Below are positions 1 through 26,975 of a DNA stretch of 64,000 bases, piece by piece. The notes beneath the pieces were generated by a model that was not told the origin of the DNA, did not search any database, and saw nothing but the letters and a program-made list of their open reading frames with translations. Position 1 is the stretch's first letter; every line of letters begins with the position of its first letter. The translations under genes were made by a program, and so were the position numbers. The stretch comes from Deltaproteobacteria bacterium (GTDB taxonomy: Bacteria; Desulfobacterota; GWC2-55-46): positions 27,528 to 91,527 of the forward strand of contig JACRCJ010000286.1 in assembly GCA_016219075.1 (NCBI GenBank), written 5' to 3'.

Positions 1-688
1 GCAGCCGGAGACGTACAAGAACAAGGTCGTCATAAAACCCTGGGGCTACGAGTTCCTGATGTTCGAGAACGACTGCGTCGCGGTCTGGTTCCTGTTCATA
101 AAGAGCGGACACTCGACCTCGATGCACTGCCACCCGAGGAAAAAGACCTCGCTAATCCTCCTTAACGGCAGCGCGATGAGCAATACGTTCCACAAGAGGC
201 GGTACCTCAAGGGAGGCGACGCGCTCATTGTTGAAAAGGGCGTCTTTCACTCGACGAAGTCGCTCTCCAGGCCGGGGATATCGCTCCTTGAGATAGAAAC
301 GCCTCCGGATAAGACGGACCTGCTGAGGCTCGAGGACAGGTACGGGAGGGAAAGGTCGGGGTACGAGGGGATATCCGAGATGCAGACGCACAACCTGAAC
401 GACTACAGCTACTTCTCTTTCGAGGAGACGGACTATCACCTTAAGCACTCGTACTCGAAAGAGCGGTTCTCGATATCGTTCGAGGTCTTCTCGAACGGGG
501 ACGAGTTCAAAAAGCACTTCAAGACAGGGGAAGGTGAGCTGTACACGGCGTGCAGGGGCAGGGTGCTCGACAAGAACGGCAGCCTCGTCCTCGATACCGG
601 AGAGACTCAGAACGCGAGCGTATTTACCGGCAACGGGCTCTTTATTTCGGGAAAGACCGTGCTCCTTAAGACGGCTACAAAGGATTAG
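1..688 (+). CDS. cupin-domain protein, 5' partial (reading frame open from window edge; ...KPWGYEFLMFENDCVAVWFLFIKSGHSTSMHCHP... two-His cupin motif)
   Basis: Frame open from base 1 and the track ORF 59..688 continues it. The G-x5-HxH-like cupin signature and beta-rich composition fit a sugar isomerase/epimerase-type cupin. Confidence 0.45.
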   Translation, partial: QPETYKNKVVIKPWGYEFLMFENDCVAVWFLFIKSGHSTSMHCHPRKKTSLILLNGSAMSNTFHKRRYLKGGDALIVEKGVFHSTKSLSRPGISLLEIETPPDKTDLLRLEDRYGRERSGYEGISEMQTHNLNDYSYFSFEETDYHLKHSYSKERFSISFEVFSNGDEFKKHFKTGEGELYTACRGRVLDKNGSLVLDTGETQNASVFTGNGLFISGKTVLLKTATKD

Positions 689-691
689 CGA

Positions 692-2254
692 ATGGCGAAA
701 AAAACCGGCCCTCTCGCTGACTGCGCGCTTGTGCTGTCCGATGGCGACAATATAGCGGTGGCCAAAACAGATATAGCGCGTTCAAGCGTCCTTGAATTTC
801 CGGGCGGCGGAGTGATTGTCCTCGAAAGGATCCCGAAGGGGCATAGGTTCGCCATCAAGGATATAAAAAAAGGCGCAATGATCGTGCAATACGGCTACCC
901 ATTCGGGAGGTCGAAGGGGATAAATAGAGGCGAGCTTATCTCAAGGGATAAGCTCGCCTCCTGGCGCAGCGATTACAGGAGGCTGGATAAAAGGCCTTTA
1001 AAGGACTTTAAAGGGCACGGCGGTAATGTAGCTCCGGATGCGGGCCTATCCAGGACTTTCATGGGCTACCTGAGGAAGGACGGCCGCGTGGGGACCCGGA
1101 ACTTCTATCTCCTTGTGCCCACTTCACTCTGCGCCGCCGACATAGCCGTGAAGCTCTCGTCTGAATTCAAGGGCGGCGCTCTGAAGGGGTACAGGAACAT
1201 AGACGGGGTCAATGCCGCCGCGCATACCGAAGGCTGCGGGTCCAATGACGGGGAGATAATAGAGCGGCTCCTCTTAACGCTGAAAAACACGATACTCCAC
1301 CCGAATGTCGGAGGCGCGCTCGTAATAGACCTCGGCTGCGAAAAGATAGGCTGCGAGGCCCTTTCCAGATACATGGGGGGCAAGCCGCGCCACGGCAAGC
1401 CCGTTGACTTCATCTCCATACAGGCGCTCGGAGGCACTGGAAAGGCCCTCAAGAAAGGGAGCGAGATAATAAGGAAAAGGCTAAAAGAGGTAAATTCCAT
1501 AAAACGAAAAGACGTGCCGGTAAGCCGTCTGGCCGCGGGCACTGAGTGCGGGGCCTCGGATACTTTCTCCGGCATTACGGCAAACCCCGTCATAGGATGG
1601 GTAGTTGACAGGTTAATTGCATCAGGAGGGTCGGCGATATTGTCCGAAACGCCTGAGATGCTCGGCGCCGAGGCCGCGCTCATCATGAGGATGCGCTCAA
1701 AGAAGACCGTCAGAAAATTCATTGACGGGCTCGATTACTATAACGGGCTGGCCAGGAGGCTTTCGGTATCAATGGAAGGGAACTTTGTAGCAGGCAACAT
1801 AAAGGGAGGGCTCCTTACTCCGGCGCTTAAGAGCCTCGGAGCGATACTCAAGGGCGGGAGCGCCCCCATTGTAGACTTCCTCGGGTACGGGGAGACGTTA
1901 AAGGAGCAGGGGCTTTCGATAATGAACGGGCCGGGCAATGACCTCGAGTCCATGACAGGCATTTCGGCGTCCGGGGCCAACATAATACTCTTCTCCACCG
2001 GCATGGGGGCGACCGAAGGCAACCTTACGTCCCCGGTCATAAAGATATCGTCCACCACCGAGCTTTTCGAGAGCATGGGCGATGACATCGATTTCGACGC
2101 CGGACGGCTGCTTGACGAAGGGGTATCAATGGACAGGCTCGGGGGCGAGCTCTTCGAGCTGATGGTAGACGTGGCCTCAGGAAAAAAAACACGCGCTGAG
2201 GTCTGGGATAAACGCTCATTCCAGATATGGAGCGCGGGAAAGCTTTCATTATAG
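692..2254 (+). CDS. UxaA/GarD-family sugar-acid dehydratase (N-terminal SAF domain plus altronate/galactarate dehydratase-like domain)
   Basis: 520 aa. The N-terminal SAF-like beta-clip is followed by GYLRKDGRVGTRNFYLLVPTSLCA, which matches the UxaA/GarD core motif GY.R.DG.VG.RN...P. Length is typical for the family. Confidence 0.65.
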   Translation: MAKKTGPLADCALVLSDGDNIAVAKTDIARSSVLEFPGGGVIVLERIPKGHRFAIKDIKKGAMIVQYGYPFGRSKGINRGELISRDKLASWRSDYRRLDKRPLKDFKGHGGNVAPDAGLSRTFMGYLRKDGRVGTRNFYLLVPTSLCAADIAVKLSSEFKGGALKGYRNIDGVNAAAHTEGCGSNDGEIIERLLLTLKNTILHPNVGGALVIDLGCEKIGCEALSRYMGGKPRHGKPVDFISIQALGGTGKALKKGSEIIRKRLKEVNSIKRKDVPVSRLAAGTECGASDTFSGITANPVIGWVVDRLIASGGSAILSETPEMLGAEAALIMRMRSKKTVRKFIDGLDYYNGLARRLSVSMEGNFVAGNIKGGLLTPALKSLGAILKGGSAPIVDFLGYGETLKEQGLSIMNGPGNDLESMTGISASGANIILFSTGMGATEGNLTSPVIKISSTTELFESMGDDIDFDAGRLLDEGVSMDRLGGELFELMVDVASGKKTRAEVWDKRSFQIWSAGKLSL

Positions 2255-2256
2255 AT

Positions 2257-2886
2257 ATGAACAGATACAGGGCTGTCTTGTTCGATTTCGACGGGGTTAT
2301 CGGGAGGACCATGGAAGATAACTTCAGGGCCTGGGAGTACGCCTTCTCGGCCTTCAACCTCGATATAAGCAAGGAGGCATACTTCCTCATCGAGGGCTTC
2401 AGCGCCAGGAAGGTCGCCGAGCACTTCCTCGGCAAAAGGGCGGAAGACAGCCTCGTAGACGACCTCGTCAGGCTCAAGGAGAAATACTATCTCGAGAACT
2501 GCAGGTTCTCTTTCTACGATGGCGTCGAGACTTTCGTGGCGAGTCTCAAGGAAAAGGAATACCTCCTCGGGCTCGTCTCGGGCGCGCACTCGAAAAGGTT
2601 GAAGCATTCCGTCGAGAAGGATTTCCTGAAGATGTTCGACGTTGTAGTGACGGCTGACAGGGTCGGCAACTGCAAACCGCACCCTGAGCCTTACCTCAAG
2701 GCGTCGAAGGCCCTTTCATGCGCCCCTTCCGAGTGCGTTGCCGTGGAGAACGCGCCCATGGGAATCGAGGCGGCCAAGAGGGCCGGGATGTACTGCGTGG
2801 CTATATGCTCGACTCTCGACGAGGCGCACCTGAGCGGAGCGGACAGGGTAGTGAATAATTTCATGGAGCTTTGCGGGATACTCTAA
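2257..2886 (+). CDS. HAD-superfamily phosphatase/hydrolase
   Basis: LFDFDGVI (HAD motif I, DxDx[TV]). ~210 aa with a Rossmann-like core and small cap. A start at the ATG at 2257 avoids overlap with the upstream stop at 2254. Confidence 0.7.
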   Translation: MNRYRAVLFDFDGVIGRTMEDNFRAWEYAFSAFNLDISKEAYFLIEGFSARKVAEHFLGKRAEDSLVDDLVRLKEKYYLENCRFSFYDGVETFVASLKEKEYLLGLVSGAHSKRLKHSVEKDFLKMFDVVVTADRVGNCKPHPEPYLKASKALSCAPSECVAVENAPMGIEAAKRAGMYCVAICSTLDEAHLSGADRVVNNFMELCGIL

Positions 2887-2919
2887 GTGCCGCGAGCCAC
2901 TAAAAGAGACGGAGGGCCG

Positions 2920-4449
2920 ATGGACAGAGGGATAGATATCGTACTCATAAACCCCGGAGACAGAAAGCAGGTCTTTCAGGAGCTTGGAAGCGAGCTCGCC
3001 GCTATCGAGCCCCCTTTCTGGGTCGCGGTCATGGCCGCGTACTTAAGGAACTGCGGCTTCGATGTGAGGGTGATAGACTCCAACGCCGAGAACATCTCAC
3101 CCGAGGAGACCGCCGAAAGGGTAAATGCGCTCGCCCCGTTGCTCGCGGCGGTCATAGTCTACGGCTCACATCCGTCGGCCTCCACCCAGAACATGACCGT
3201 AGCCGGCAGGATCTGCACCGCGCTGAAACTGCACACGGGGGCGAAGGTGGCGATTGGCGGGCTCCACCCCTCGGCGCTGCCCAAAAGGACGCTACAGGAC
3301 GAGGACGCCGACTTTGTGATAGAGGGCGAGGGACCGCACACATTAAAAGGGCTTCTGGAGGCGCTCCGCTCGGGCGGAGATTATCAGGCGGTCCCGGGGC
3401 TGTGGTACTTCGAGGAGAACGAGGTAAAGCACAACCAGAAGGCCCCGCTCATAAAGGACCTCGACACCATCCTCCCCGTGGCGGCGTGGGACCTCCTCCC
3501 GATGGAGAAATACAGGGCGCATAACTGGCACTGCTTCGACGGCATCGAGGAAAGGATGCCGTACGGGGCGATATACACGAGCCTCGGCTGCCCCTATTCG
3601 TGCGTCTTCTGCTGCATAAACGCCCCTTTCGGGAAGCCTGGCATAAGGTTCAGGAGCCCGGAGGTAGTCGTCGAAGAGATCAGGGTGCTGGTCGAGAGGT
3701 ACGGAGTAAGCAATATCAAGATCGTAGACGAGCTTTTCATACTTAACGAAAAGCATTACATGGCCATAGCCGACCTGATAATCAAGAGCGGCTACAAGCT
3801 CAATATCTGGGCCTACGCGAGGGTCGATACCATCGACTTCGATAACCTCGATACCATCAAGAGGGCCGGGATAAACTGGCTCGGCCTCGGCATCGAATCC
3901 GCGAACGCCTCCGTAAGGGACGGGGCGAACAAGCAGATGAGGAAAAACGACATCAAGGAGGTCGTGAGGAGGATACAGGGTTCCGGCATAAGGGTCGGGG
4001 CCAACTACATCTTCGGGCTGCCCGACGACACCCTTGAGACCATGCAGGAGACCCTTGATATGGCGGTGGAGCTGAATACCGAGTGGGCCAACTTCTATTG
4101 CGCTATGGCTTACCCCGGCTCGAAACTCTACGAGACCGCCGTAAGGGAGGGCTGGGAGCTGCCCGAGGAGTGGCACGGCTTTTCACAGCTCTCGTACGAG
4201 ACACACCCGCTCCCGACGGGAAAAATCGGCGCGAAAGAGGTGCTGAAGTTCAGGGACGACGCCTTCCATAAGTATTTCGAGAGCGGGCGATATCTCAAGA
4301 TGGCGGAGGAGAGGTTCGGCCCATCCGTTGTGGAGCACGTCCGTAAGATGACATCCACAAGGCTCAAAAGAAAGATGCTCGACAGCAAGGAGAGCAGGCT
4401 GAACGAATCAATGCAAAGGTTTTCCTCATACAGGTCGAAGATACTTTAA
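2920..4449 (+). CDS. B12-binding domain radical SAM protein (class B rSAM) paralog 1
   Basis: N-terminal Rossmann-like B12-binding region (DIVLINPGD...VAVMAAYLRNCGFDVRVID). Radical SAM cysteine triad YTSLGCPYSCVFCC (CxxxCxxC). GGAGGG RBS 5-10 nt upstream of the ATG at 2920. The track ORF begins at a GTG at 2887. Confidence 0.8.
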   Translation: MDRGIDIVLINPGDRKQVFQELGSELAAIEPPFWVAVMAAYLRNCGFDVRVIDSNAENISPEETAERVNALAPLLAAVIVYGSHPSASTQNMTVAGRICTALKLHTGAKVAIGGLHPSALPKRTLQDEDADFVIEGEGPHTLKGLLEALRSGGDYQAVPGLWYFEENEVKHNQKAPLIKDLDTILPVAAWDLLPMEKYRAHNWHCFDGIEERMPYGAIYTSLGCPYSCVFCCINAPFGKPGIRFRSPEVVVEEIRVLVERYGVSNIKIVDELFILNEKHYMAIADLIIKSGYKLNIWAYARVDTIDFDNLDTIKRAGINWLGLGIESANASVRDGANKQMRKNDIKEVVRRIQGSGIRVGANYIFGLPDDTLETMQETLDMAVELNTEWANFYCAMAYPGSKLYETAVREGWELPEEWHGFSQLSYETHPLPTGKIGAKEVLKFRDDAFHKYFESGRYLKMAEERFGPSVVEHVRKMTSTRLKRKMLDSKESRLNESMQRFSSYRSKIL

Positions 4450-4453
4450 AACG

Positions 4454-6181
4454 ATGGCGCGTATACTTTTGATGAACATACCTGCGGGCCCGTTCCCGTC
4501 CGATTACCCTCCGGTTGCGATATCGAGGGTCATGGAGGGCATTGACAGTTCGCTCGGCTGCGAGGCGGCTTTCCTCAACCTCGATTTCTACAGGCTTCCT
4601 TTCGAGGAGATAGCCGGGAGGATAAAGGACTTCTCCCCGGATATCATCGGGATAAGCGCGATGCTCACGCCGTCATATTCATATGTGAAAAGGCTTTCCA
4701 ACTTTATCGGGGAGAGGTTCCCGCACGTCGTGCAGGTGCTCGGCGGCCAGATGAACGTCATAGCGAACATCATACTGCTGCGCACGAAGGTCATGTTCTG
4801 CGTGATCGGAGAATCCGAGCCTGTATTCAGCTCCCTTATAAGGCTCCTGAAAGAGGACGGCTTCAGGCCCGTTGGAATGGAGCGGTACGCGCAAATAAAA
4901 GGGCTCGTCTTCCTCCGCGACAACGCCCCTTTCTTCACGGGCTACGGCACGGAGAACAAAGAGAGCGGGGTAAGGCAGTTCAACTACAGTCTGATATCGA
5001 GGTTCACCAGCCTCGAGAACTATATCCACAGGATCGACGGCCAATACTTCAAGGTGAGGCTGCCGAACAGCAGCATGGAAGACCTGATGAAGCTCTTTAG
5101 ACCGGAGAACATCGGCAAGAACCTCGCAACCGCGTTCACGAGCAAGGGGTGCGTGAACAGGTGCACCTTCTGCCACAGGTTCACCAAGGGCTACCAGGTG
5201 ATAGGCAACGACGACGTAATAAGCTACATCGAGGCCCTTAAAAAGGACCAAAACGTCGGGATGCTCCTTTTCTCTGAGGAGAACTTCGGGAACCACAAGA
5301 AGTCCACGGCCGCGCTGGTCGAATACCTGAGGACGAGCGGCATCAACTGGGCGGCCCCTGCCGTGAGGGTAAGGTCCATCAACGAGGAGATGATAAGGTC
5401 GTGGAAGGATGCCGGGTGCGTCCATGTAAACTTCGGGATAGAGTCCCTTTCGCAGAAGATACTCGACGTCATGGAGAAGAACTCCACGGTCGAGGAGAAC
5501 ATGGAGGCGATAAGGCTCTGCTACAGGTACGGGATATTCACCGTGCTCGGGCTTGTCATCGGGATGCCGGGCGAGACCGAAGAGACGATAGAGGAGACGA
5601 TCAGCAACCTCTCGGCCGTCATACCGGACGACATCTCAATCCCTTTCGAGGTCTATATCAATTTCGTGCAGGCTATCCCCGGCACGCCTGTTTACGAGTA
5701 CGCGAGAAAGGTCGGGCTTATCGGTAACTCGATAGACGAGGAGGAGAGGTATATCGAGGGCCTCTACGACATAGACGCCAACGAGATAAGGCATTACCTG
5801 AACTTCACTGATTACGGGAAAGAGGAACTCGCGTACTGGAAATATTACATCTCGATGGAGCTCGTAACGGCTTACATCAGGAAGAACGGGTTTTTCAACG
5901 TGCTCGGCCGCAAGAGGACAAGGCCTTACAGGATAGGGCTCGCCTACTCTTTGATACCAAAGGGAATAAGAAAACCGGCGCTCAAGTATGCGCTCGCCAT
6001 AAAGACATTCGGGATAGGCTCGCCGCTCAGGATATTCCATAAAAAATTGAAAAGGCTGTTCACCGGGGAATCCGCCAGGTTCAGCTTCATCGACAGGTCG
6101 TTACGAAAGATAAACCGTGAGCTGCCCGATATTCAGAGGGGCGACGACACGAGCACCGCCGTCCTGAGGGAGAGCCGCTGA
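4454..6181 (+). CDS. B12-binding domain radical SAM protein paralog 2
   Basis: N-terminal B12-binding-like domain, then FTSKGCVNRCTFCHR (CxxxCxxC). 575 aa. Separated from paralog 1 by 4 nt. Confidence 0.75.
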   Translation: MARILLMNIPAGPFPSDYPPVAISRVMEGIDSSLGCEAAFLNLDFYRLPFEEIAGRIKDFSPDIIGISAMLTPSYSYVKRLSNFIGERFPHVVQVLGGQMNVIANIILLRTKVMFCVIGESEPVFSSLIRLLKEDGFRPVGMERYAQIKGLVFLRDNAPFFTGYGTENKESGVRQFNYSLISRFTSLENYIHRIDGQYFKVRLPNSSMEDLMKLFRPENIGKNLATAFTSKGCVNRCTFCHRFTKGYQVIGNDDVISYIEALKKDQNVGMLLFSEENFGNHKKSTAALVEYLRTSGINWAAPAVRVRSINEEMIRSWKDAGCVHVNFGIESLSQKILDVMEKNSTVEENMEAIRLCYRYGIFTVLGLVIGMPGETEETIEETISNLSAVIPDDISIPFEVYINFVQAIPGTPVYEYARKVGLIGNSIDEEERYIEGLYDIDANEIRHYLNFTDYGKEELAYWKYYISMELVTAYIRKNGFFNVLGRKRTRPYRIGLAYSLIPKGIRKPALKYALAIKTFGIGSPLRIFHKKLKRLFTGESARFSFIDRSLRKINRELPDIQRGDDTSTAVLRESR

Positions 6182-7798
6182 ATGATTGTAACCGCCGGAC
6201 AGAGGCCCAAAGTCCTGCTCGTTTATCCAGGTTCAAAATCAATGGGGTTTACCTTCCCGATGGGCCTCCTTTACGTGGCCCAGGCGCTCCGGAAGATCGG
6301 CATAGAGGTGTCGATGCTCCACCTGGGCGTCGATACCATCGGCGACCTGAAGCTCGACAGGTACCTCTTCGTGGGCATAAGCATGCTGACGGGCGAGATA
6401 ATATCAAACGGGCTTGAGGTCGCAAGGATAATAAAGGGATACGACCCCGATATACCGGTTGTCATCGGGGGGGTGCACCCGTCGCTCCTTCCCGAGGAAT
6501 CGCTCGGGAACCCGCTTGTGGATATCGTCGTCGTGGGCGAGGGTGAAAAGACGGCCCAGGAACTCGCGCTCAGCCTGATGGACAACGGGGACCTTTCGGG
6601 TATAAAGGGCATCGCCTGGAAGGATAACGGAAAGGTCGTCATAAACCCCAAGCGCGAGCTCCTCGATATGGACGAGATAGAGTTCGACGTGCCCTATGAG
6701 CTTCTCGGGAGGCATTTTTACAGCTCCTCAACAATGCCGGTCCACACATCGAGGGGGTGCCCGTACAGGTGCGGTTTCTGCTATAACCCGGTGCTAAACA
6801 AAAGGCGGTACAGGTACAAGAGCGCCGAAAGGGTGATAGCCGAGATAGAGTACCTCCACGGGAAATACGGCGTCCACAACTTCAACTTCGATTACGAGGA
6901 CGAGTTCTTCGTTGACCCTAAAAGGGCTTACGAGATATTCAAGGCAGTCATAGACAAGGGGCTTAAGATCAACTGGAGCGCCTTTTGCCGGTTCAATACC
7001 TTCGACAGGGCCATAGAGCGGTTCGGAGACGATTTCACGGACGTGCTGAAAAAATCAGGTTGCTATTACCTGAGCTTCGGCGCTGAGTCCGGCTCGCAGA
7101 GGCTTCTTGACGACGTGATAGAGAAGGACATAAAGGTCGAGCAGATAGTAAGGACCATAGACAGGATGAAAAGGGCCGGGATAATGCACAGGGTCAGCTT
7201 CATATGCTGCTTCCCGACCGAGACCGAAGAGGACCTCGAGCAGACCTTCGGCTGCATGGAGCGGATTTCGAAAGGCAACCGCAAGATCGTCCTCGGGATA
7301 TTCAAGCTCGTTCCCTTGCCCTGCACGAAGATATACGACACGCTCAAGAAGGACTTCGGCTTCAAGTCGCCGTCGTCGCTCGAGGAATGGGGCCGGTACA
7401 AGATCCCGAGCGAATCCTTTGAGGACGTTACGTGGCTTCCGAAAAAATACGCCAAAAAGTGCTTCAACATAGCGCTCCTTTCGAACTACCCCTTCCATCA
7501 GGACTTCAGGTCGTACCGGGACTACAGGGACTTCGTTTTCAATATCGATTCCTCCTATGGCACGGGCTATCTCGATTATCTGATGGCAAGGTTGCAGAGG
7601 TGGCGGCTCAAAAACAGGTATTTCGGCTTCATGGCGGAGCCGGTACTGTTCAACCGGTTGATAGAGCTCAGGATGTTCCTTAAAAGGTACGTGCTAAAGA
7701 AGTACCTGCCCGCCCCGGTGTACGAGAGGCTGAAGAGGTGGTTCGGCAAGAACTCCTGGACCTTGCAGGAACATAAAGACGCGCAGGACGGGGCTTAA
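6182..7798 (+). CDS. B12-binding domain radical SAM protein paralog 3
   Basis: KVLLVYPGS... B12-binding domain. HTSRGCPYRCGFCYNP (CxxxCxxC). ATG immediately follows the stop of paralog 2 (TGAATG). Confidence 0.8.
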   Translation: MIVTAGQRPKVLLVYPGSKSMGFTFPMGLLYVAQALRKIGIEVSMLHLGVDTIGDLKLDRYLFVGISMLTGEIISNGLEVARIIKGYDPDIPVVIGGVHPSLLPEESLGNPLVDIVVVGEGEKTAQELALSLMDNGDLSGIKGIAWKDNGKVVINPKRELLDMDEIEFDVPYELLGRHFYSSSTMPVHTSRGCPYRCGFCYNPVLNKRRYRYKSAERVIAEIEYLHGKYGVHNFNFDYEDEFFVDPKRAYEIFKAVIDKGLKINWSAFCRFNTFDRAIERFGDDFTDVLKKSGCYYLSFGAESGSQRLLDDVIEKDIKVEQIVRTIDRMKRAGIMHRVSFICCFPTETEEDLEQTFGCMERISKGNRKIVLGIFKLVPLPCTKIYDTLKKDFGFKSPSSLEEWGRYKIPSESFEDVTWLPKKYAKKCFNIALLSNYPFHQDFRSYRDYRDFVFNIDSSYGTGYLDYLMARLQRWRLKNRYFGFMAEPVLFNRLIELRMFLKRYVLKKYLPAPVYERLKRWFGKNSWTLQEHKDAQDGA

Positions 7799-7799
7799 G

Positions 7800-9011
7800 A
7801 TGATAGCAGGGAAATACGCGGTGCTCTCAACACTCAAGGACGGCTTCCTTAACGACCTCGGGAACGGCTACATAAGGGAGTTCGTCAATAACGGCGCGCT
7901 CTTCATCGACTACGAGGAGGAGTACCTGAAGCGCGGCAGCAAAAGGGTGCAGGAGCACATATTCGGGTCAATAAAGGAGCGCGGGATAGAAGCGCTCATC
8001 TATCAGGCTTCCCCGAGCGATTTTCACTTCAGCCTGGATTTTTTCAGAAAGCTCCAGGACAGGGTCTATACGGTCATGATGCTCGGTGATTCGGACCACT
8101 ACTTCGACATAAGGGATATCTACTACGCGCAATGCATGGACCTCGTGGTCGTCTACGACTGTCTGTCGAGGTACAGGTTCAGGCAGTACGGGATAGACTC
8201 AATCTCCTTTTACAGCTCCTTTGACATGAAAAAATACAAAAAGGCCGGGATGAAGAAAACCATCGACGTCTCTTTCGTGGGCGACGTGGCGAACAAGATA
8301 GAAAGGCAGGGCTACCTGGATTTCCTGCGGGATAACGGGGTGTCCGTGGAGGTCTTCGGCACGGGGACGAGGAACGGGCAGATAAGCCTCGATGAGATGG
8401 TAAGGGTCTTCAACTCCTCGAAGATAAACCTCAACTTCACGAAGATATCCCTCAGGAACGCCATAAGAAAGGAGCCGCTCATAAACCTGAGGCTCCGGCA
8501 GGTGAAGGGCAGGATCATCGAGGCCGCGCTCTGCGGCGGGTTCGTCCTCACGGAGTACGTGCCGGGTATAGAGGAGGTCTTCGAACCAGGCAGGGAAATC
8601 GCCGCCTTCGACTCCAGGGAGGAGATGCTGGAGAAGACGAGGTACTTCCTCCGCCACGATAAGGAGAGGGATGAGATAGCCTTCAACGGCTTTACGAGGG
8701 CAACGAGGGACTACGACGTCGAGAAGGCCATCCCCGCGCTTATCAGCAGGATCGATGATATGAGGGGGTGGGCGAAAAAAAAGCGGGGCGAGCTCCTCAT
8801 CGACCCTGCGTTTTCAAGGAACTTCGTAACGTTCAGGGCGGAGCTGATCTCCCGCCTCATAAAGCTCAAAAGGTGGGACCTCGCGGGAGAGGAGCTCGGC
8901 CTTATCTTCAAGGGCAGGGGCATAAACCTTAAAAAAGCCGCCGGGATTCTCCTTTTCAACTTTTTCCCGGCGCTTAAGAAGATATACCTGAGGCTCAATG
9001 ACGCCGCTTGA
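7800..9011 (+). CDS. CgeB-like glycosyltransferase (Glyco_trans_1_2 / DUF3880 family) paralog A
   Basis: Blocks SFVGD...YL..L...G..V..FG.G, SKINLNFTK and EAALCGGFVLTEY are typical of the CgeB/spore-maturation-protein GT1-like family. Paralogous to 10463-11716. Confidence 0.6.
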   Translation: MIAGKYAVLSTLKDGFLNDLGNGYIREFVNNGALFIDYEEEYLKRGSKRVQEHIFGSIKERGIEALIYQASPSDFHFSLDFFRKLQDRVYTVMMLGDSDHYFDIRDIYYAQCMDLVVVYDCLSRYRFRQYGIDSISFYSSFDMKKYKKAGMKKTIDVSFVGDVANKIERQGYLDFLRDNGVSVEVFGTGTRNGQISLDEMVRVFNSSKINLNFTKISLRNAIRKEPLINLRLRQVKGRIIEAALCGGFVLTEYVPGIEEVFEPGREIAAFDSREEMLEKTRYFLRHDKERDEIAFNGFTRATRDYDVEKAIPALISRIDDMRGWAKKKRGELLIDPAFSRNFVTFRAELISRLIKLKRWDLAGEELGLIFKGRGINLKKAAGILLFNFFPALKKIYLRLNDAA

Positions 9012-10506
9012 CATAAAAAAGGACTCGAAGCTCAAATCCGGGATGAACCTGATGATAGTGCAGTTCGCGCTGTACTTCATCCCTCTCATCACAATACCGT
9101 ATGTCGTAAAGACCGTCGGGATAGAGAACTACGGCAAGTACGTTTTCTTCCAGGCCGTGATGGGCCTTCTCGGCGTGATAATAAACTGGGGCTTCATACA
9201 GACCGGCGTGAGGGACATCTCGGTATGCAAGACCCTCGATGAGATTAACCGGGAATATTCGCACATACTCTACTCCAAGCTCCTGGCGCTTTTTATCGCG
9301 TGCGCCATCGGGTCCGCGCTTTTCCTCTTCGGGATGTTTAGGGCGGAGTGGGAGCTCTATTCGCTCTCGTTCCTGGCCCTTCCGGTCATCTTCCTCGATA
9401 CGGCATTCCTTTATCAGGGGATCGAGAAACTGAAGGACTTCGTCAATATCAGCCTCGCCGGAAACCTTTGCGTGCTCGCGCTCCTTTTCCTTACGGTCAG
9501 GGAAGAAGGCGACTACAGGCTCCTCCCGATGGTCTTCTCCGCGCCGAGGATACTGGCGTACCTGTTCTCAATCTACTTCCTCCACTACAGGTTCAGGATA
9601 GTACCGAATGCCTTCAGCTTGAGCGGCGTTTACGAGAAGCTCCGGAGCAACTTCAGCATCTTCGCCACGAACATCTCCGCGATACTTTATACAAGGGCGA
9701 CGCAGGTGATACTCGGCGTTGCCGCCGGCACGGAGTTCGTAGGCTACTACGCCGTGGCCGACCAGCTCGTATTCGCCTACTCAAACATACAGGGGAAGAT
9801 CTCCACCGTCTATCAGCCGCAGATAGCGCAGGCCTTCAAGGACGACTTCAACGAGGCCGTGGTAAAGGCCAGGGAGAACACCTGCATGATCTTTCTGGCC
9901 GCCATGGCCGGGTTCCTCTTCACCCAGTTCTTCGCCCCGGAGATTTTATATTTTCTCTTCAAGGACCGCGCCGCGGGCTCTGTCCATGTATTGAGGATAC
10001 TTTCCGTAAACTTCGTCACCATGCATCTGAGCTACATTATGGCCATGCAGATACTCCTTTCGCTCCACAGGGAATGGGAGATACTCAAGCCCTCGATATA
10101 CGCGGCTATTCTGAACCTTACGCTCGGGAGCGCCCTTATATACTTTTTCAGGCACACCGGCGCGGCCCTGTCGGTGGCGTTGATAGAGGTCATAATATGC
10201 GTTTACTTCTATCTGAAGGTAAAAGGCTACGGCATAGACGTGCTCGACAGAAAAATGTTGATGACGCTGCTTAACTTCGTTGTTTCACTTCTGTTCATAT
10301 TGTCGGGCCTGAAGTTCCTCTACGTAATTACGGACGTAAGCGTCTACGTCAAGTTCCCTCTCGTAACGGTGTTTTACGCGCTCTCGATACTCTTGGCGCT
10401 CAAGGCGCTGAATATCATCGACTTTAAAAAAAGGAAGCTGCTAATCGGACAGGTCGCTATCAATGATCAGGTCGAAAGTGAAGATACTCGTGCTGAACGT
10501 CCATAA
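8998..10506 (+). CDS. Wzx-type oligosaccharide flippase (MOP/polysaccharide biosynthesis protein family)
   Basis: 502 aa with ~12-14 predicted TM helices. N-terminal LMIVQFALYFIPLITIPYVVKTVGIENYGKY is characteristic of Wzx/RfbX flippases. Confidence 0.7.
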   Translation: MTPLDIKKDSKLKSGMNLMIVQFALYFIPLITIPYVVKTVGIENYGKYVFFQAVMGLLGVIINWGFIQTGVRDISVCKTLDEINREYSHILYSKLLALFIACAIGSALFLFGMFRAEWELYSLSFLALPVIFLDTAFLYQGIEKLKDFVNISLAGNLCVLALLFLTVREEGDYRLLPMVFSAPRILAYLFSIYFLHYRFRIVPNAFSLSGVYEKLRSNFSIFATNISAILYTRATQVILGVAAGTEFVGYYAVADQLVFAYSNIQGKISTVYQPQIAQAFKDDFNEAVVKARENTCMIFLAAMAGFLFTQFFAPEILYFLFKDRAAGSVHVLRILSVNFVTMHLSYIMAMQILLSLHREWEILKPSIYAAILNLTLGSALIYFFRHTGAALSVALIEVIICVYFYLKVKGYGIDVLDRKMLMTLLNFVVSLLFILSGLKFLYVITDVSVYVKFPLVTVFYALSILLALKALNIIDFKKRKLLIGQVAINDQVESEDTRAERP

Positions 10507-11716
10507 AAAGGACGGCCGCTCCATGAACGACTTCGCGGACTTCAACGCGATGCGGCTCATGGAGAGCTTCGGAGGGGGGCGCGTATTCTATTTCTCGGAC
10601 TCGGTGAACAACATCGGCATCAGGAGGACCGAGGAGGAGATAAGGAGGATAATAGCCGAAGAGGGCGTGTCCATCGTATTCTTCGCGCCTAACGGGGACA
10701 GCTACGAGCTCTCAATAGAGTTCTTTAAAGGATTGAAAAAAGACCTCGGCGTCAAGTGTGTCCTCTGGGTCCTCGATGACGAGATGATATTCGACGTGAT
10801 GAGCAAGTATTACTCACAGGCGTTCGACGCGGCGGTTACGACTGACTACTACGCTACATTCGCCTACCGTAAGCTCGGTCTCCCCGCGCTCTATTACTTC
10901 TCAAGCTACCTGAAGGCGGACCTCCACCCCGTCGATGTCGAAAGAGACATCCCGGTAAGTTTCATCGGGGACTGCGCGAAGGCCGACAGGATGGAGTACA
11001 TAAATTACCTCCGGGAGAATGGTGTAGACGCAAGGTCCTTCGGCGACGGTTCCGAGAAAGGGTTTCTGAGCAAGGCCGAGGTCCCTGCCATATATTCGAG
11101 GTCGAAGATAAACCTCAACTTCACAAAGGTCGACCATGCGGGCCCGGGCTCGTGGTTCCTCGCTGACAACGCCCTTACGAACATCATAAGGCAGAACAAG
11201 GGCCGGCCGATGGAGATAGCGCTTACACGGTCATTTTGCCTGAGCGAAACATCGCCTTCCATAGGTGTTGTCTTCGAGCAAGGCAAGGAGATAGATACTT
11301 TCCGGTGCAAAGAGGAGCTGCTCGCCAAAGTAAATCAGTACCTCAAGAACGACGGAGTCCGCGAGCGGATAGCGGAGGGCGCTTACAGGAAGGCCGTGAG
11401 CGAGTATGAGGCCGGGGTCTTTTTCCCCGCGCTTGCGGACAGGCTCTGCGCCGTCCTTGATGAAGGCAGGTATCTGCCGGAGTGTGAATGCATCCATAAA
11501 GACCCGGTCTTCAAAAAAAACCAGATGATAAGGCTTTCGATAGTAATGCTCTACCAGATGAGCAGGCTTAAGGCGCTCCCGGCCGCCGAAACTTTCAAGG
11601 AGCTTTTCCGGTACGGGATAATCGTGTTTTTATCCTCCTTCATCAGGGCGATTAAAATTTCTTTCCTTAAGCTCGTCCATAAAAAAAGGTCAAGGCGGCA
11701 TGGACTTCAGAAATAA
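10463..11716 (+). CDS. CgeB-like glycosyltransferase paralog B
   Basis: Shares SFIGDCAKADRMEYINYLRENGVD..FG.G and SKINLNFTKV blocks with 7800-9011. An alternative start at the ATG at 10523 would remove the overlap with wzx. Confidence 0.55.
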   Translation: MIRSKVKILVLNVHKKDGRSMNDFADFNAMRLMESFGGGRVFYFSDSVNNIGIRRTEEEIRRIIAEEGVSIVFFAPNGDSYELSIEFFKGLKKDLGVKCVLWVLDDEMIFDVMSKYYSQAFDAAVTTDYYATFAYRKLGLPALYYFSSYLKADLHPVDVERDIPVSFIGDCAKADRMEYINYLRENGVDARSFGDGSEKGFLSKAEVPAIYSRSKINLNFTKVDHAGPGSWFLADNALTNIIRQNKGRPMEIALTRSFCLSETSPSIGVVFEQGKEIDTFRCKEELLAKVNQYLKNDGVRERIAEGAYRKAVSEYEAGVFFPALADRLCAVLDEGRYLPECECIHKDPVFKKNQMIRLSIVMLYQMSRLKALPAAETFKELFRYGIIVFLSSFIRAIKISFLKLVHKKRSRRHGLQK

Positions 11717-12794
11717 AGAACTGAAGAAGATAAATATCCTTTTCATAGTGTCGATCCTCCCGCCCTATCCGGGCGGTGCGGCTGTCGACTACCGGAGCTT
11801 CCTCAAAGGCCTATCCGGGAGGGAAGACCTCTGCAATGTGAGCGTGCTTACCGAGAAGGGCTGCTCGAAGGATGTGGATAACGTCGCGTTCAGGGACACG
11901 CTCTTCAATTACGATTCGGCTGGCGCGGGGGCGAAGAGCCGCTTAAGGCAGGCCGCGAATTACCTTTTGATACTGTGGCGCATAATCTCGGCGAAAGAGG
12001 ACATAATCCATATCCACGCGAGGTACGTCTACGCAAAGTACGCCGGCAGGGTCATATGGCTGGCCTTATGGTTATCGCGGGCAAAAGCTGTGGTCGATAT
12101 AAGGGACAGGTTCTACGATAACTTCGGGTTCGGCCACCACTTCATCGTATGCTCGGAAGAGCTGCTCAAATATTATTCGTGGGTAAGGAACGCGTCCTGT
12201 CTGCCTGTGCCGGTCGAGGTCAGGGCCTCGGGGCGCAAGGCCCCTGGCAGGCATATCGCCTACTTCGGGTCCGTAGCGCGGAACAAAGGTATCCTTGAGC
12301 TTGTGGACGGGTTCAAGGAATACGTCAAAGCCAGCAAAGACCCGCTTGAGCTGCACATCTACGGCCACGATATGATCGGCGAGCAGTTCCTGAAAAACAT
12401 CGAAGGCGTGGACAGGATAAGGTTTTTCGGCCCCATACCGAATGAAGAGGTGGCGGAGAGGATATCGGAGTGCAGGGGCGTGGTCCTTCCGTCAAAGTCA
12501 GAGGGCATGCCGAGGGTCTGCCTCGAGACGATGATGCTGGGGCGGGTCCTCGCCTGCCACAGGAACGTCCGTTCGATATTCCCGTGCATACCCGGTGAGT
12601 TCGTGCTCGAAGACCTGACGCCTTCGGAGTTCAATAGGGTCTTGACGAACATAGAGGCCTCCGGCGGGCGCGCCTCGTATGATTACGACTTCTCTGTCCA
12701 TGCGCCGGAGAATGTCACGGAGAGGTTATTGGAGCTTTACAGTAATGTCCTGGGCTATACATATACAAGGGAGGGAGCATGCTTGTCTCAATAG
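11700..12794 (+). CDS. GT4/GT1-family glycosyltransferase
   Basis: C-terminal E-x7-E-like donor-binding block (LPSKSEGMPRVCLETMMLGRVL). Rossmann GT-B layout. Confidence 0.65.
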   Translation: MDFRNKELKKINILFIVSILPPYPGGAAVDYRSFLKGLSGREDLCNVSVLTEKGCSKDVDNVAFRDTLFNYDSAGAGAKSRLRQAANYLLILWRIISAKEDIIHIHARYVYAKYAGRVIWLALWLSRAKAVVDIRDRFYDNFGFGHHFIVCSEELLKYYSWVRNASCLPVPVEVRASGRKAPGRHIAYFGSVARNKGILELVDGFKEYVKASKDPLELHIYGHDMIGEQFLKNIEGVDRIRFFGPIPNEEVAERISECRGVVLPSKSEGMPRVCLETMMLGRVLACHRNVRSIFPCIPGEFVLEDLTPSEFNRVLTNIEASGGRASYDYDFSVHAPENVTERLLELYSNVLGYTYTREGACLSQ

Positions 12795-18573: not shown

Positions 18574-20028
18574 ATGAAAAAGATACTCCTTGTATATAAC
18601 GTCTATTCAGATGAGCTCGGGTCGAGCCGCCCGCCGCTCGGCACGGGCTATCTCGCGCAGGCGCTCGAGGACGCGGGGGCCGAGTACGGCGTGGTTGACA
18701 TGAAGCTCGGCTACTCGGAGGAAGACGTCCTGAAAATGATCGAGGAAGGCGGCTATGACTGCGTGGGGACAACTGTCTATACGGTCGGGCACAAGAGGTT
18801 TTTCGGGCTCCTCGGTCTTATAAAGGACAGGTTCCCCTCCATCGAGACCCTTGCGGGGGGGCCGCATGTGACGATAATGGGCAGGAAAATACTGGAAGAG
18901 TACGGGAAGGTCGATTTCGCGTTCGCGGGAGAGTCTGAAGGCTCTCTTATACGGTTCCTTGAAGGCGGGGAACACAGGGATATCCCGGGGCTTATTTACA
19001 GGGATGGAGGGGAGGTCCTCTACCCGGTCCCGTTCACAAGGCCGGAGAATCTCGACGATATCGGATGGCCGAAGTACTCCGGGTTCGAGCTCGACAAATA
19101 CGCAAATGAAATGGGGGTCATCACATCGAGGGGGTGCCCTTACTCCTGCATCTTCTGCTCGGTCGGGCTCACGCTCGGCAAGAAGATAAGGACCCGCTCG
19201 ATAGAAAAGATAGGCGATGAGCTTGAGTACTGGTACTCGAAAGGCAGGAGGATTTTCAACTTCCTCGACGACAACTTCACCTTCTACAGCGAAAGGGTCT
19301 TCGCGCTTTGCGGCGAGATAGAGAAAAGAGGGCTCAAGGACCTGACACTGAGGGCGTCAAACGGCATAAGGGCCGACAAGATAAACAGGGAGATGCTCCT
19401 CAGGATGAAGGAGGCCGGGTTCAAAAGTTTCGGCATCGGCGTCGAGGCGGGGAACAACAAGGTGCTCAAGACGTTAAAGAAGGGCGAGACCATCGAGCAG
19501 ATAGAGGGCGCGATAAAGATGAGCTGCGAGCTGGGGTTCGAGGTATCGCTCTTTTTCGTCTACGGGGCCCCAGGGGAGACGGCCGAGGACATAGAGGACT
19601 CCATAAGGATTGCCGGGAAATATCCCGTCTTCAAGGCTGACTTCTACAACCTCATGCCGTTCCCGGGCACGGCCCTCTGGGACTGGGTCGAGGACAATAA
19701 CGCCTGGACGGACGAGCCCCTTGAGCTGCTGAACAGCATGGACAAGAACCTCAGGTTCTCTAAAAAGACCGGCAGGCCCTTTTTCGTCACAAGCGAGCTC
19801 AACGAGGAAGACAGGCAGAAGCTCGCCGGGAAGCTGCGGAAGGCGACTCTGCATATCCAGAGGAAGGGGATTGAAAAGGTCTTCGCAAGGTTCGGGGTAT
19901 TGAAATACCCGGCCGGTTATATCGGCTCTACAATGGTCTTCCAGCGGCTTTTTTTCAATAACAACAGGCTCAGGAAATTATCCGACAGGGTACGCTTTCA
20001 CTCAAAACCAAGGACAAAAGTAGATTAA
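18574..20028 (+). CDS. B12-binding domain radical SAM protein paralog 4
   Basis: MKKILLVYNV... B12-binding domain. ITSRGCPYSCIFCSV (CxxxCxxC). AAAGGATAAAACC RBS region before the ATG. Confidence 0.8.
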   Translation: MKKILLVYNVYSDELGSSRPPLGTGYLAQALEDAGAEYGVVDMKLGYSEEDVLKMIEEGGYDCVGTTVYTVGHKRFFGLLGLIKDRFPSIETLAGGPHVTIMGRKILEEYGKVDFAFAGESEGSLIRFLEGGEHRDIPGLIYRDGGEVLYPVPFTRPENLDDIGWPKYSGFELDKYANEMGVITSRGCPYSCIFCSVGLTLGKKIRTRSIEKIGDELEYWYSKGRRIFNFLDDNFTFYSERVFALCGEIEKRGLKDLTLRASNGIRADKINREMLLRMKEAGFKSFGIGVEAGNNKVLKTLKKGETIEQIEGAIKMSCELGFEVSLFFVYGAPGETAEDIEDSIRIAGKYPVFKADFYNLMPFPGTALWDWVEDNNAWTDEPLELLNSMDKNLRFSKKTGRPFFVTSELNEEDRQKLAGKLRKATLHIQRKGIEKVFARFGVLKYPAGYIGSTMVFQRLFFNNNRLRKLSDRVRFHSKPRTKVD

Positions 20029-20039
20029 GGGGGCGAATT

Positions 20040-26957: not shown

Positions 26958-26975
26958 AGGGTTTTCAGGGTATTG

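What the first reader, a model, noticed from the sequence alone, without database searches (positions are those of the whole stretch)
1..2886. Cupin + UxaA-family dehydratase + HAD phosphatase trio at the head of the glycan operon: possible route to an unusual deoxy/keto sugar
UxaA/GarD-type enzymes dehydrate hexonate/hexarate sugar acids and are normally catabolic. Here a 520-aa UxaA-like gene sits between a cupin (sugar isomerase/epimerase-type) and a HAD phosphatase, immediately upstream of three B12-rSAM genes on the same strand. The arrangement resembles a precursor-supply module making a 2-keto-3-deoxy acid sugar (isomerase, dehydratase, phosphatase), analogous in logic but not in homology to Kdo/nonulosonate pathways.
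Basis: inference. Interest (0 to 1): 0.55.

Follow-up and report, generated by a model that had tools for sequence, protein, structure and literature searches.

The report
Sugar-acid dehydratase inside a sugar-building cassette

Summary
The three ORFs are real, but the description needs correcting. The "cupin" (bases 2-688) is open to the window edge. In close relatives it is the C-terminal module of a ~570-aa protein whose N-terminal half resembles GDP-fucose synthase. About 9 kb of the same operon lies upstream, so the trio is not at the head of the operon. ORF 692-2254 is a full-length UxaA/GarD-superfamily dehydratase with the four iron-site cysteines. It belongs to a separate clade that never sits next to uronate catabolism genes. 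The HAD gene (true start probably 2257) resembles the BT2127 inorganic pyrophosphatase and keeps both residues I recall as BT2127's markers.

All three genes belong to a cassette found in Desulfobacterota, Elusimicrobiota, anammox bacteria and Omnitrophota. Its core is a cupin, a TPP enzyme, a DJ-1/PfpI protein and a HAD, with nucleotide-sugar enzymes and B12 radical-SAM genes. Next to that core lies UxaA, an enolase-superfamily sugar-acid dehydratase, a 2-keto-3-deoxy-acid aldolase, or nothing.

My best reading is that UxaA makes a 2-keto-3-deoxy acid that the TPP enzyme consumes, probably to add a carbon branch to a GDP-keto-sugar. The product is unknown. I found no paper describing the cassette.

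The parts
2..688 (+). C-terminal two-domain metal-type cupin module of a ~570-aa fusion with a GDP-fucose-synthase-like SDR. The N-terminal ~340 aa lie outside the window.
   Evidence: The frame is open to base 2. It is 96% identical to the C-terminus of the L001 570-aa protein, whose N-terminal domain matches GDP-fucose synthase 1BSV at 1.3e-98. The AF2 model has pLDDT 90.6 and a cupin fold. Invariant H42, H44 and H83 suggest a metal site.
692..2254 (+). UxaA/GarD-superfamily (COG2721) sugar-acid dehydratase, 520 aa, of a clade specific to this cassette.
   Evidence: Pfam GD_AH_C and GD_AH_second. GarD 6U7L at E 1.1e-63 over the full length. Foldseek TM 0.76/0.85. Cys147, Cys182, Cys216 and Cys286 are invariant and match the proposed iron ligands of PMC6336799. 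TIGR03248 scores 279 bits against a cut-off of 731, so it is not a GarD equivalog.
2257..2886 (+). HAD-IA hydrolase of the BT2127 (inorganic pyrophosphatase) type, 209 aa. An alternative upstream ATG lies at 2227.
   Evidence: HAD_2 1e-32. Best PDB match is BT2127 3QU2 at 2.4e-21, with the Glu47 and Asn172 equivalents kept. Both are invariant in the cassette HADs. NF053653 scores 121 bits against a cut-off of 245.
2920..4449 (+). B12-binding radical-SAM enzyme 1 (GTG 2887 is an alternative start). It is conserved directly downstream of the HAD in the closest relatives.
   Evidence: Pfam B12-binding and Radical_SAM. 94% identical to its L001 counterpart. Same order in L001, L003 and L009.
4454..6181 (+). 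B12-binding radical-SAM enzyme 2.
6182..7798 (+). B12-binding radical-SAM enzyme 3.

Best explanation
The three ORFs are the middle of one long operon that builds and polymerises an unusual, probably GDP-activated, sugar.

(1) Bases 2-688 are the cupin half of a bifunctional enzyme. Its missing N-terminal half resembles GDP-fucose synthase. The architecture is like CapF (SDR plus cupin), and the enzyme probably epimerises or isomerises and reduces a GDP-4-keto-6-deoxy sugar.

(2) Bases 692-2254 encode an iron-dependent UxaA/GarD-type dehydratase. It removes the proton next to a carboxylate and eliminates the neighbouring hydroxyl, turning a 2,3-dihydroxy acid (an aldonate-type sugar acid) into a 2-keto-3-deoxy acid. 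That keto acid is most likely the substrate of the cassette's TPP enzyme (PDH-E1-like alpha/beta, encoded just upstream of the window in relatives). The TPP enzyme would decarboxylate it and, by analogy with YerE and AviB/EvdU5-S3, attach the remaining carbon unit as a branch on the GDP-keto-sugar. Cassette versions without a dehydratase would use pyruvate.

(3) Bases 2257-2886 encode a BT2127-type HAD. It most likely hydrolyses pyrophosphate to pull the HddC-like guanylyltransferase, which works with the HddA/Fkp-like GHMP kinase.

The B12 radical-SAM enzymes downstream probably C-methylate the sugar before the glycosyltransferases and the Wzx/Wzy machinery use it.

Shown: family memberships, conserved catalytic residues, gene order, co-occurrence, and which genes replace which. 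Inferred: every substrate, the link from dehydratase to TPP enzyme, the branching reaction and the pyrophosphatase role.
For: Family and fold of the dehydratase: with the iron-cysteine motif from PMC6336799.

Biosynthetic cassette: the closest relatives L001 and L003 carry DegT, an HddC-like nucleotidyltransferase, an HddA-like GHMP kinase, an SDR, a GDP-fucose-synthase (GFS)-like SDR, E1 alpha, E1 beta, DJ-1, the GFS-like SDR::cupin fusion, UxaA, HAD and three B12 radical-SAM genes, followed by glycosyltransferases and Wzx. The same core occurs in Elusimicrobiota, Brocadia and Geomonas limicola, and with an ALS-type TPP enzyme in Scalindua and Omnitrophota.

Context specificity: of 80 genome loci, nine of the eleven with at least 40% identity (all those at 45% or more) carry cassette genes. 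All 69 canonical UxaA loci (32-38% identity) carry none, apart from one weak radical-SAM hit in L024. Two canonical loci checked (L027, L064) and the 41% outlier L017 carry catabolic genes: UxaC/UxaB, LacI/PfkB and GH106.

Slot replacement: in loci anchored on the cupin, the gene after the cupin is UxaA (11), an enolase-superfamily sugar-acid dehydratase (11), the HAD directly (6) or E1 alpha directly (4). UxaA and the enolase-type gene never occur together. In the variant with an ALS-type TPP enzyme (30 loci) the accessory is UxaA, the enolase-type gene or an HpcH/HpaI 2-keto-3-deoxy-acid aldolase. In L169 the aldolase lies between the cupin and the TPP enzyme.

TPP link: E1 alpha/beta is replaced by an ALS/YerE-type enzyme, which is fused to the cupin in L012, L014 and probably L127. 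Both TPP enzyme types are described as adding branches to NDP-4-keto sugars (PMC10338323).

HAD.

Operon continuity: gaps of 3 nt, 2 nt (or an overlap) and 0-33 nt, with no + strand promoter or terminator motif between the genes.
Against: No substrate is known. Every characterised UxaA/GarD and enolase-type dehydratase acts on free open-chain sugar acids in catabolism, and the cassette has no obvious source of such an acid. YerE-type enzymes are known to use pyruvate only, so a 2-keto-3-deoxy-aldonate donor has no precedent. Cassettes without any dehydratase work with the same TPP enzyme (L088, L124), so the dehydratase could equally be a late tailoring step. DJ-1 is unexplained and lies next to the dehydratase in five loci (L015, L016, L111, L118, L153), which fits a different order of steps. 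The HAD scores below the NCBIfam cut-off for BT2127 orthologues and could be a sugar-phosphate phosphatase. The window's own upstream sequence was not seen and is inferred from relatives whose UxaA is 89% and 71% identical.
Confidence: 0.5

Rival explanations
1. Cupin isomerase, UxaA dehydratase and HAD phosphatase form a self-contained module that makes a 2-keto-3-deoxy sugar acid (with the logic of Kdo synthesis), and that acid is itself built into the glycan.
For: The three genes abut. UxaA chemistry yields 2-keto-3-deoxy acids. The HAD also hits the YqaB-type subfamily that includes 6-phosphogluconate phosphatase.
Against: The cupin is fused to a GFS-like SDR or to a TPP enzyme. The dehydratase is optional while the cupin and HAD persist. 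The HAD carries the residues I recall as BT2127 markers. No CMP-ulosonate synthetase or KdsA/NeuB-type synthase was seen in the ORFs scanned: window ORFs of at least 150 aa to about 45 kb, and the called genes upstream in L001/L003.
Confidence: 0.1
2. Late tailoring on the nucleotide sugar. The TPP enzyme first adds a short branch. Oxidation gives a 2-oxoaldehyde, which DJ-1/PfpI (glyoxalase-III chemistry) converts to a 2-hydroxy acid. UxaA then dehydrates that acid side chain while it is still on the NDP-sugar. The result is an acidic, deoxygenated, branched sugar.
For: DJ-1 with an intact Cys-His elbow belongs to every cassette version. The dehydratase lies directly beside DJ-1 in L015, L016, L111, L118 and L153. 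The optional dehydratase behaves like a tailoring step.
Against: No UxaA or enolase-type dehydratase is known to act on a nucleotide-linked substrate. DJ-1 might only protect against reactive keto sugars. The HpcH-type aldolases found in the same position fit supply of a free keto acid better than tailoring.
Confidence: 0.18
3. Free-sugar route. UxaA makes a 2-keto-3-deoxy-aldonate and the TPP enzyme simply decarboxylates it to a 2-deoxy-aldose one carbon shorter. The GHMP kinase phosphorylates that sugar at C1 and the guanylyltransferase, helped by the HAD pyrophosphatase, activates it, as in Fkp-type salvage.
For: The GHMP kinase also resembles the Fkp fucokinase domain. BT2127-type HADs pair with Fkp, which acts on a free sugar. 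NUDIX genes in several cassettes could release free sugars. All known family members act on free acids.
Against: The fusions of cupin with GFS-like SDR and of cupin with TPP enzyme tie the TPP step to nucleotide-sugar chemistry. Cassettes without a dehydratase still need a substrate for the TPP enzyme.
Confidence: 0.12
4. Heptose supply by stand-ins. The PMI-like cupin replaces GmhA (ketose-phosphate to aldose-phosphate) and the HAD replaces GmhB (removal of the terminal phosphate between the kinase and nucleotidyltransferase steps). This explains only the cupin and the HAD, not UxaA.
For: An HddA-like kinase and an HddC-like transferase are present without gmhA or gmhB in the cassette. In Scalindua they are replaced by an HldE-like kinase/nucleotidyltransferase next to a HAD. 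The cupin hits the PMI domain of GMP/PMI (TIGR01479) weakly.
Against: The cassette HAD is type IA with the residues I recall as BT2127 markers, not a IIIA GmhB type. The cupin is fused to a GFS-like SDR or a TPP enzyme, not to the kinase. Distant cassettes keep cupin and HAD without a GHMP kinase.
Confidence: 0.1
5. A catabolic uronate or hexonate island that merely lies next to the glycan cluster.
For: All characterised members of the family are catabolic.
Against: No UxaB, UxaC, KdgK, KdgA, transporter or regulator is present. The genes are tightly packed with biosynthetic genes. The clade is confined to the cassette context, while canonical UxaA loci carry UxaC/UxaB/LacI.
Confidence: 0.02

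Closest known systems
UxaA/GarD superfamily (COG2721): E. coli GarD (6U7L), UxaA, D-arabinonate dehydratase C785_RS13685
   Same: Same domain order (SAF-like N-domain, GD_AH_second, GD_AH_C), same fold, the same four cysteines proposed to bind iron, and the same conserved acidic and basic core residues.
   Different: Only 26-28% identity to GarD in the structural alignment and 32-38% to canonical UxaA. It scores below the GarD equivalog cut-off. It has clade-specific switches such as E285/K next to Cys286, E419/V and D465/W. Its setting is biosynthetic rather than catabolic.
TPP-dependent branching of NDP-4-keto sugars: YerE (ALS type, yersiniose) and AviB1/B2 or EvdU5/EvdS3 (PDH-E1 type, eurekanate)
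   Same: The cassette holds a PDH-E1-like alpha/beta pair or, in other lineages, an ALS-type TPP enzyme, beside nucleotide-sugar SDRs and in some loci an RfbH-like DegT. PMC10338323 describes both TPP types in this role.
   Different: Those pathways have no sugar-acid dehydratase, DJ-1, PMI-like cupin or B12 radical-SAM set. The donor there is pyruvate. The sugar here is probably GDP-linked rather than CDP-, UDP- or TDP-linked.
CapF of Staphylococcus aureus (2ZKL): SDR reductase plus cupin epimerase in one chain
   Different: The sequence relation is only at the level of fold (15% identity). The SDR half here is a close GDP-fucose synthase relative. The cupin has an extra C-terminal beta domain.
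BT2127 (HAD-type inorganic pyrophosphatase) paired with Fkp in Bacteroides
   Same: It is the best solved-structure match. The Glu47 and Asn172 equivalents are kept. A gene 91% identical to BT2127 lies directly upstream of the GHMP-kinase/GDP-fucose pyrophosphorylase Fkp, which parallels the cassette's GHMP kinase and guanylyltransferase.
   Different: It scores 121 bits against a 245-bit cut-off for the NCBIfam equivalog. It is found in other phyla. Its activity is untested.
GDP-heptose modification in Campylobacter jejuni capsules (HddA, HddC, GFS-like C4 reductases, cupin epimerases)
   Same: An HddA-like kinase, an HddC-like guanylyltransferase and GFS-like SDRs sit beside a cupin. That the PDB entries named GDP-L-fucose synthase (7ANH, 7M13, 7CXT) are C. 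jejuni enzymes is my own recall.
   Different: All scores are below the equivalog cut-offs. There is no GmhA or GmhB. The cupin is a metal-type, PMI-like one rather than RmlC-like. TPP, DJ-1, dehydratase and radical-SAM genes are extra.

Membership tests
UxaA/GarD superfamily (COG2721) | Domain architecture: SAF-like N-domain, GD_AH_second and GD_AH_C | tested here: met
   Pfam 4.7e-83 and 6.8e-34. SAF is sub-threshold in sequence, but the N-domain matches 3K3S and 3LAZ with TM 0.7-0.9.
UxaA/GarD superfamily (COG2721) | Four conserved cysteines proposed as iron ligands (PMC6336799) | tested here: met
   C147, C182, C216 and C286 are invariant in 22 clade members and conserved in 69 canonical UxaA proteins.
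UxaA/GarD superfamily (COG2721) | Full-length fold like GarD | tested here: met
   phmmer 1.1e-63 over residues 14-506. Foldseek E 7e-39, TM 0.76/0.85.
Galactarate dehydratase GarD (equivalog TIGR03248) | Score above the curated cut-off of 730.85 bits | tested here: not met
   278.9 bits.
Altronate dehydratase UxaA in the strict sense | Hexuronate catabolic context (UxaB, UxaC, KdgK/KdgA, regulator) and close similarity to canonical UxaA | tested here: not met
   32-38% identity to the 69 canonical loci. No catabolic neighbour in the window or in cassette loci, whereas L027 and L064 have UxaC/UxaB/LacI/PfkB.
UxaA/GarD superfamily (COG2721) | Iron-dependent dehydration of a sugar acid to a 2-keto-3-deoxy acid | not testable with these tools
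   Needs an enzyme assay. Indirect support: an enolase-type sugar-acid dehydratase takes the same slot.
BT2127-type HAD inorganic pyrophosphatase | HAD catalytic motifs plus equivalents of Glu47 (cap) and Asn172 (motif 4, ENAP) | tested here: met
   DFDG, FLIEG and ENAPMG align to BT2127. They are invariant in the cassette HADs. That these two residues are markers is my recall of Huang et al. 2011; the residue-47 variant sequences among the PDB hits show it was a mutagenesis target.
BT2127-type HAD inorganic pyrophosphatase | NCBIfam NF053653 score above 245 bits | tested here: not met
   121 bits; 122.6 bits for the L089 homologue.
BT2127-type HAD inorganic pyrophosphatase | Pairing with a GHMP anomeric kinase and a GDP-sugar pyrophosphorylase | tested here: met
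   The Bacteroides orthologue lies beside Fkp. The cassette holds a GHMP kinase and an HddC-like transferase.
CapF-like SDR::cupin bifunctional enzymes | SDR and cupin in one polypeptide, with a metal site in the cupin | tested here: inconclusive
   Neither was found among the ORFs scanned: window ORFs of at least 150 aa to about 45 kb, and the called genes upstream in L001/L003.
YerE/AviB-type branched-chain sugar pathway | A TPP enzyme beside enzymes that form NDP-4-keto sugars | tested here: inconclusive
   TPP enzymes of both known types are present in relatives. SDR312 is only generically like GalE or a 4,6-dehydratase. The branching activity is untested, and the TPP genes lie outside the window.

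The most novel reading that the evidence does not exclude
The cassette makes a so far undescribed sugar. A 2-keto-3-deoxy sugar acid made by UxaA (or in other lineages by an enolase-type dehydratase or an HpcH-type aldolase) is decarboxylated by the TPP enzyme and joined to a GDP-keto-sugar. This gives a long polyhydroxyalkyl-branched or chain-extended 'higher' sugar, which several B12 radical-SAM enzymes then C-methylate. It would be the first biosynthetic role for the UxaA/GarD superfamily and the first use of a sugar-acid donor by a YerE/AviB-type enzyme.
Probability: 0.2. Interest if true: 0.8.

Novelty: new variant of a known kind. Interest (0 to 1): 0.6.

Why it matters
Every characterised UxaA/GarD enzyme is catabolic. 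A clade dedicated to nucleotide-sugar biosynthesis would widen what the family is known to do. It would also flag a widespread cassette in Desulfobacterota, Elusimicrobiota, anammox Planctomycetota and Omnitrophota, and possibly Magnetococcales (a lone UxaA-clade hit), whose sugar product is unknown. The mutually exclusive use of three unrelated enzyme families that all make or handle 2-keto-3-deoxy acids gives a concrete, testable idea of the intermediate. One cultured strain, Geomonas limicola Red745, carries the cassette, so the product can be sought experimentally. The work also corrects the annotation of the neighbouring genes: the cupin is half of a fusion protein, and the HAD is probably a pyrophosphatase.

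Tried and rejected
- Exact-sequence look-ups of the window's UxaA protein and of its 100% identical database entry P0001 found no contig. The true upstream sequence therefore had to be inferred from relatives whose UxaA is 89% and 71% identical.
- Five literature searches found nothing relevant. They combined UxaA or altronate dehydratase with radical SAM, GDP, heptose, DJ-1, polysaccharide or biosynthetic gene cluster, and anammox with S-layer glycosylation.
- The BT2127 paper is not held. Its marker residues are therefore quoted from memory, backed by the residue-47 variant sequences among the PDB hits.
- A sequence search of the fusion protein against the PDB matched only its SDR half among the 60 best of 94 hits shown.
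- The promoter and terminator scan found nothing above chance between the genes.
- The catabolic-island idea was rejected on context.
- I considered a methionine-salvage-like trio (dehydratase, HAD enolase-phosphatase, cupin dioxygenase). I dropped it because most hosts appear to be anaerobes (my assumption from their taxonomy), the HAD is of the BT2127 type, and the cupin is fused to an SDR or a TPP enzyme.

Full report
**What is in the window**

Positions 1-31851 carry one long + strand cluster. Bases 2-688 are an ORF that is open to the window edge. Next come a 520-aa ORF (692-2254), a HAD ORF (2227 or 2257 to 2886) and three B12-binding radical-SAM genes. After these lie CgeB-like and other glycosyltransferases, Wzx, a PMT_2-family membrane protein, Wzy, a methyltransferase and two more B12 radical-SAM genes. 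The cluster ends with a WbpM-like dehydratase, Wzz, a 1115-aa Wza-like exporter and Wzi.

The three genes of the finding are tightly packed:
- The stop at 688 is followed by an ATG at 692.
- The stop at 2254 is followed by an ATG at 2257, which gives the same 209-aa HAD as in relatives.
- The stop at 2886 is followed by GTG 2887 or ATG 2920.
- No + strand promoter-like or terminator-like site lies between them.

**Checking the observation**

The UxaA call is solid. Pfam gives GD_AH_C 4.7e-83 and GD_AH_second 6.8e-34. The protein aligns over its full length to E. coli GarD (6U7L, E 1.1e-63). An AF2 model (pLDDT 87) superposes on GarD with TM 0.76/0.85, and its N-terminal domain matches the UxaA and GarD N-domain fragments. 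The HAD call is also solid.

The "cupin gene" is not a whole gene. The frame is open from base 2. The 228 residues are 96% identical to the C-terminus of a 570-aa protein in the closest relative L001. The N-terminal 310 residues of that protein match E. coli GDP-fucose synthase at 1.3e-98.

In L001 and L003 (UxaA 89% and 71% identical) nine further genes precede the UxaA gene on the same strand:
- an RfbH/DegT-type PLP enzyme
- an HddC-like nucleotidyltransferase
- an HddA-like GHMP kinase
- a GalE-like SDR
- a second GDP-fucose-synthase (GFS)-like SDR
- PDH-E1-like alpha and beta subunits
- a DJ-1/PfpI protein
- the GFS-like SDR::cupin fusion

"At the head of the operon" is therefore an effect of the window edge.

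**A cassette-specific clade**

The 120 best database relatives (47-100% identity) are all about 520 aa. The few that carry a source name come from Deltaproteobacteria, Thermodesulfobacteriota, Elusimicrobiota and Brocadia.

Contexts in Elusimicrobiota (L005, L007), Brocadia (L006), groundwater Deltaproteobacteria (L009, L015) and the cultured Geomonas limicola Red745 (L016) repeat the same genes, although the order varies. Scalindua (L012) and Omnitrophota (L014) keep DJ-1, cupin, UxaA and radical-SAM genes but use a different TPP enzyme.

In a scan of one genome per species, nine of the eleven loci with at least 40% identity carry cassette genes; these are all the loci at 45% or more. The 69 loci with 32-38% identity carry none, apart from one weak radical-SAM hit in L024. 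The controls show the classical catabolic setting. L027 has UxaC-LacI-UxaB-UxaA, L064 has LacI and PfkB, and the 41% outlier L017 sits next to a GH106 rhamnosidase.

The four cysteines proposed as iron ligands in this superfamily (PMC6336799) are invariant here (C147, C182, C216, C286). So are the other family-wide polar residues. About 25 positions are fixed differently in the two groups, for example E285 against K next to Cys286. The protein scores 279 bits against the 731-bit cut-off of the GarD equivalog model. It is a competent-looking member of the superfamily, but it is neither GarD nor UxaA proper.

**The dehydratase slot**

I anchored a second search on the cupin rather than on UxaA. 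Tables built with tblastn show the usual order: DJ-1, GFS-like SDR, cupin, X, HAD, E1 alpha, E1 beta. X is one of the following:

| Gene in slot X | Loci |
|---|---|
| UxaA | 11 |
| Enolase-superfamily (MR_MLE) protein | 11 |
| Nothing, HAD follows directly | 6 |
| Nothing, E1 alpha follows directly | 4 |

UxaA and MR_MLE never occur in the same locus. The best curated matches of the L089 MR_MLE protein are arabinonate, gluconate/galactonate, galactonate, talarate/galactarate, mannonate and rhamnonate dehydratases.

Two unrelated families with the same chemistry thus occupy one slot. This is strong contextual evidence that the step is dehydration of a sugar acid. The existence of cassettes with no dehydratase shows that the step is optional.

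**The wider core**

In Scalindua and Omnitrophota the cupin is the N-terminus of an ~855-aa fusion with an ALS/YerE-type TPP enzyme, and there is no E1 alpha/beta. In 30 loci the cupin is directly followed by such a TPP enzyme, or fused to it, mostly with DJ-1 and, where the contig is long enough, a HAD, an SDR, a nucleotidyltransferase, DegT and glycosyltransferases.

The invariant core is therefore cupin, TPP enzyme (either type), DJ-1 and HAD. Next to that core lies UxaA (L012, L014), MR_MLE (L153) or an HpcH/HpaI-type aldolase (L133, L161, L169). In L169 the aldolase sits between the cupin and the TPP enzyme. To my knowledge, HpcH/HpaI aldolases make or cleave 4-hydroxy-2-oxo acids, that is, 2-keto-3-deoxy acids.

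All three accessory families share that compound class, and the enzyme beside them decarboxylates 2-oxo acids. Both TPP enzyme types have published roles, shown or proposed, in attaching a carbon branch to NDP-4-keto sugars: YerE, and the PDH-E1-like EvdU5/EvdS3 (PMC10338323). The fusions of cupin with the GFS-like SDR and of cupin with the TPP enzyme link these three activities.

In Scalindua the kinase and nucleotidyltransferase pair is also replaced, by an HldE-like bifunctional protein.

**The HAD**

Its best solved relative is BT2127, a HAD-fold inorganic pyrophosphatase (2.4e-21). The Glu47 equivalent (FLIEG) and the Asn172 equivalent (ENAPMG) are present and invariant in the cassette HADs. 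I recall these two residues as the BT2127 markers; the residue-47 variant sequences among the PDB hits show that it was a target of mutagenesis.

A Bacteroides protein 91% identical to BT2127 lies directly upstream of Fkp, the GHMP fucokinase/GDP-fucose pyrophosphorylase. The cassette has the analogous kinase and guanylyltransferase, and its kinase also hits the Fkp model.

A role in removing pyrophosphate is therefore at least as likely as a role as a sugar-phosphate phosphatase. However, the score (121 bits) is below the 245-bit cut-off of the curated model.

**The cupin**

**Most likely mechanism**

UxaA turns a 2,3-dihydroxy acid into a 2-keto-3-deoxy acid. The TPP enzyme decarboxylates that acid and, I think most likely, adds the carbon unit to a GDP-4-keto-6-deoxy sugar prepared by the SDRs and the cupin. 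The HAD drives GDP-sugar formation, and the radical-SAM enzymes methylate the product.

Only family membership, residue conservation and the gene patterns are shown. All substrates and the order of steps are inferred.

The rivals are these:
- late tailoring of an acid side chain, which fits the adjacency of DJ-1 and the dehydratase in five loci
- a free-sugar route to a 2-deoxy sugar
- stand-ins for the heptose pathway, which would explain only the cupin and the HAD
- a catabolic island, which the context contradicts

**Novelty and verdict**

I found no paper describing this cassette or a biosynthetic UxaA. I rate it a new variant of a known kind, with interest 0.6.

Noticed in passing
window 2887-7798 and 18574-21485: The one glycan cluster holds five B12-binding radical-SAM genes. 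All score far below every curated equivalog cut-off; the best partial hits are BchE, HpnJ, ApyD and P-methyltransferase models. Relatives carry three to five such genes, some HemN-like or SPASM-type. Several C-methylations or other radical steps on a sugar are implied.
   Followed up: partly
window 7800-9011 and 10463-11716: Two paralogous CgeB-like Glyco_trans_1_2 proteins (403 and 417 aa) flank the Wzx flippase. The arrangement is conserved in L001 and L003.
   Followed up: no
window 26832-30179: An unusually long (1115 aa) Wza-type exporter with Poly_export and at least eight SLBB matches (six SLBB, two SLBB_2). Wzi follows it.
   Followed up: no
window 2227-2257 and 2887-2920: The longest-ORF starts are probably wrong. 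The HAD more likely starts at ATG 2257 and the first radical-SAM gene at ATG 2920, preceded by GGAGGG. Both then match the lengths of the L001 homologues (209 and 509 aa).
   Followed up: yes
L016 (Geomonas limicola Red745, NZ_BLXZ01000004.1) 1852-6845: In this cultured strain a GT2-TPR fusion, a TPR protein and a GT61 precede the cassette. To me this looks more like protein glycosylation than a capsule locus. It offers an experimental handle on the sugar.
   Followed up: partly
L006 (Ca. Brocadia DTUAMX2) 2964-12260: In Brocadia the eight-gene core (SDR, E1 alpha, E1 beta, B12 radical-SAM, DJ-1, SDR::cupin, UxaA, HAD) stands alone between uvrB and a type I-C CRISPR-Cas locus. No glycosyltransferase, kinase or nucleotidyltransferase lies nearby.
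   Followed up: no
L161 5491-9122; L133; L169: Some distant cassettes carry an HMGL/DmpG-like aldolase and an HpcH/HpaI aldolase. L161 and several others (for example L127, L130, L137) also have a second ALS-type TPP enzyme.
   Followed up: partly
L005, L007, L088, L089: A NUDIX hydrolase recurs inside the cassette, with a weak hit to GDP-mannose mannosyl hydrolase among many others. It might release or edit the nucleotide sugar. The window itself was not checked for one.
   Followed up: no
window 32827-45371: Downstream of the cluster the strand switches. The genes there are an HDOD protein, a second PMT_2 membrane protein (+ strand), a XerC/D-type recombinase, GlnD, AmiC-like amidase, MutS and a GH57 enzyme. 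All are ordinary housekeeping genes, so the glycan cluster ends near 31.9 kb.
   Followed up: no
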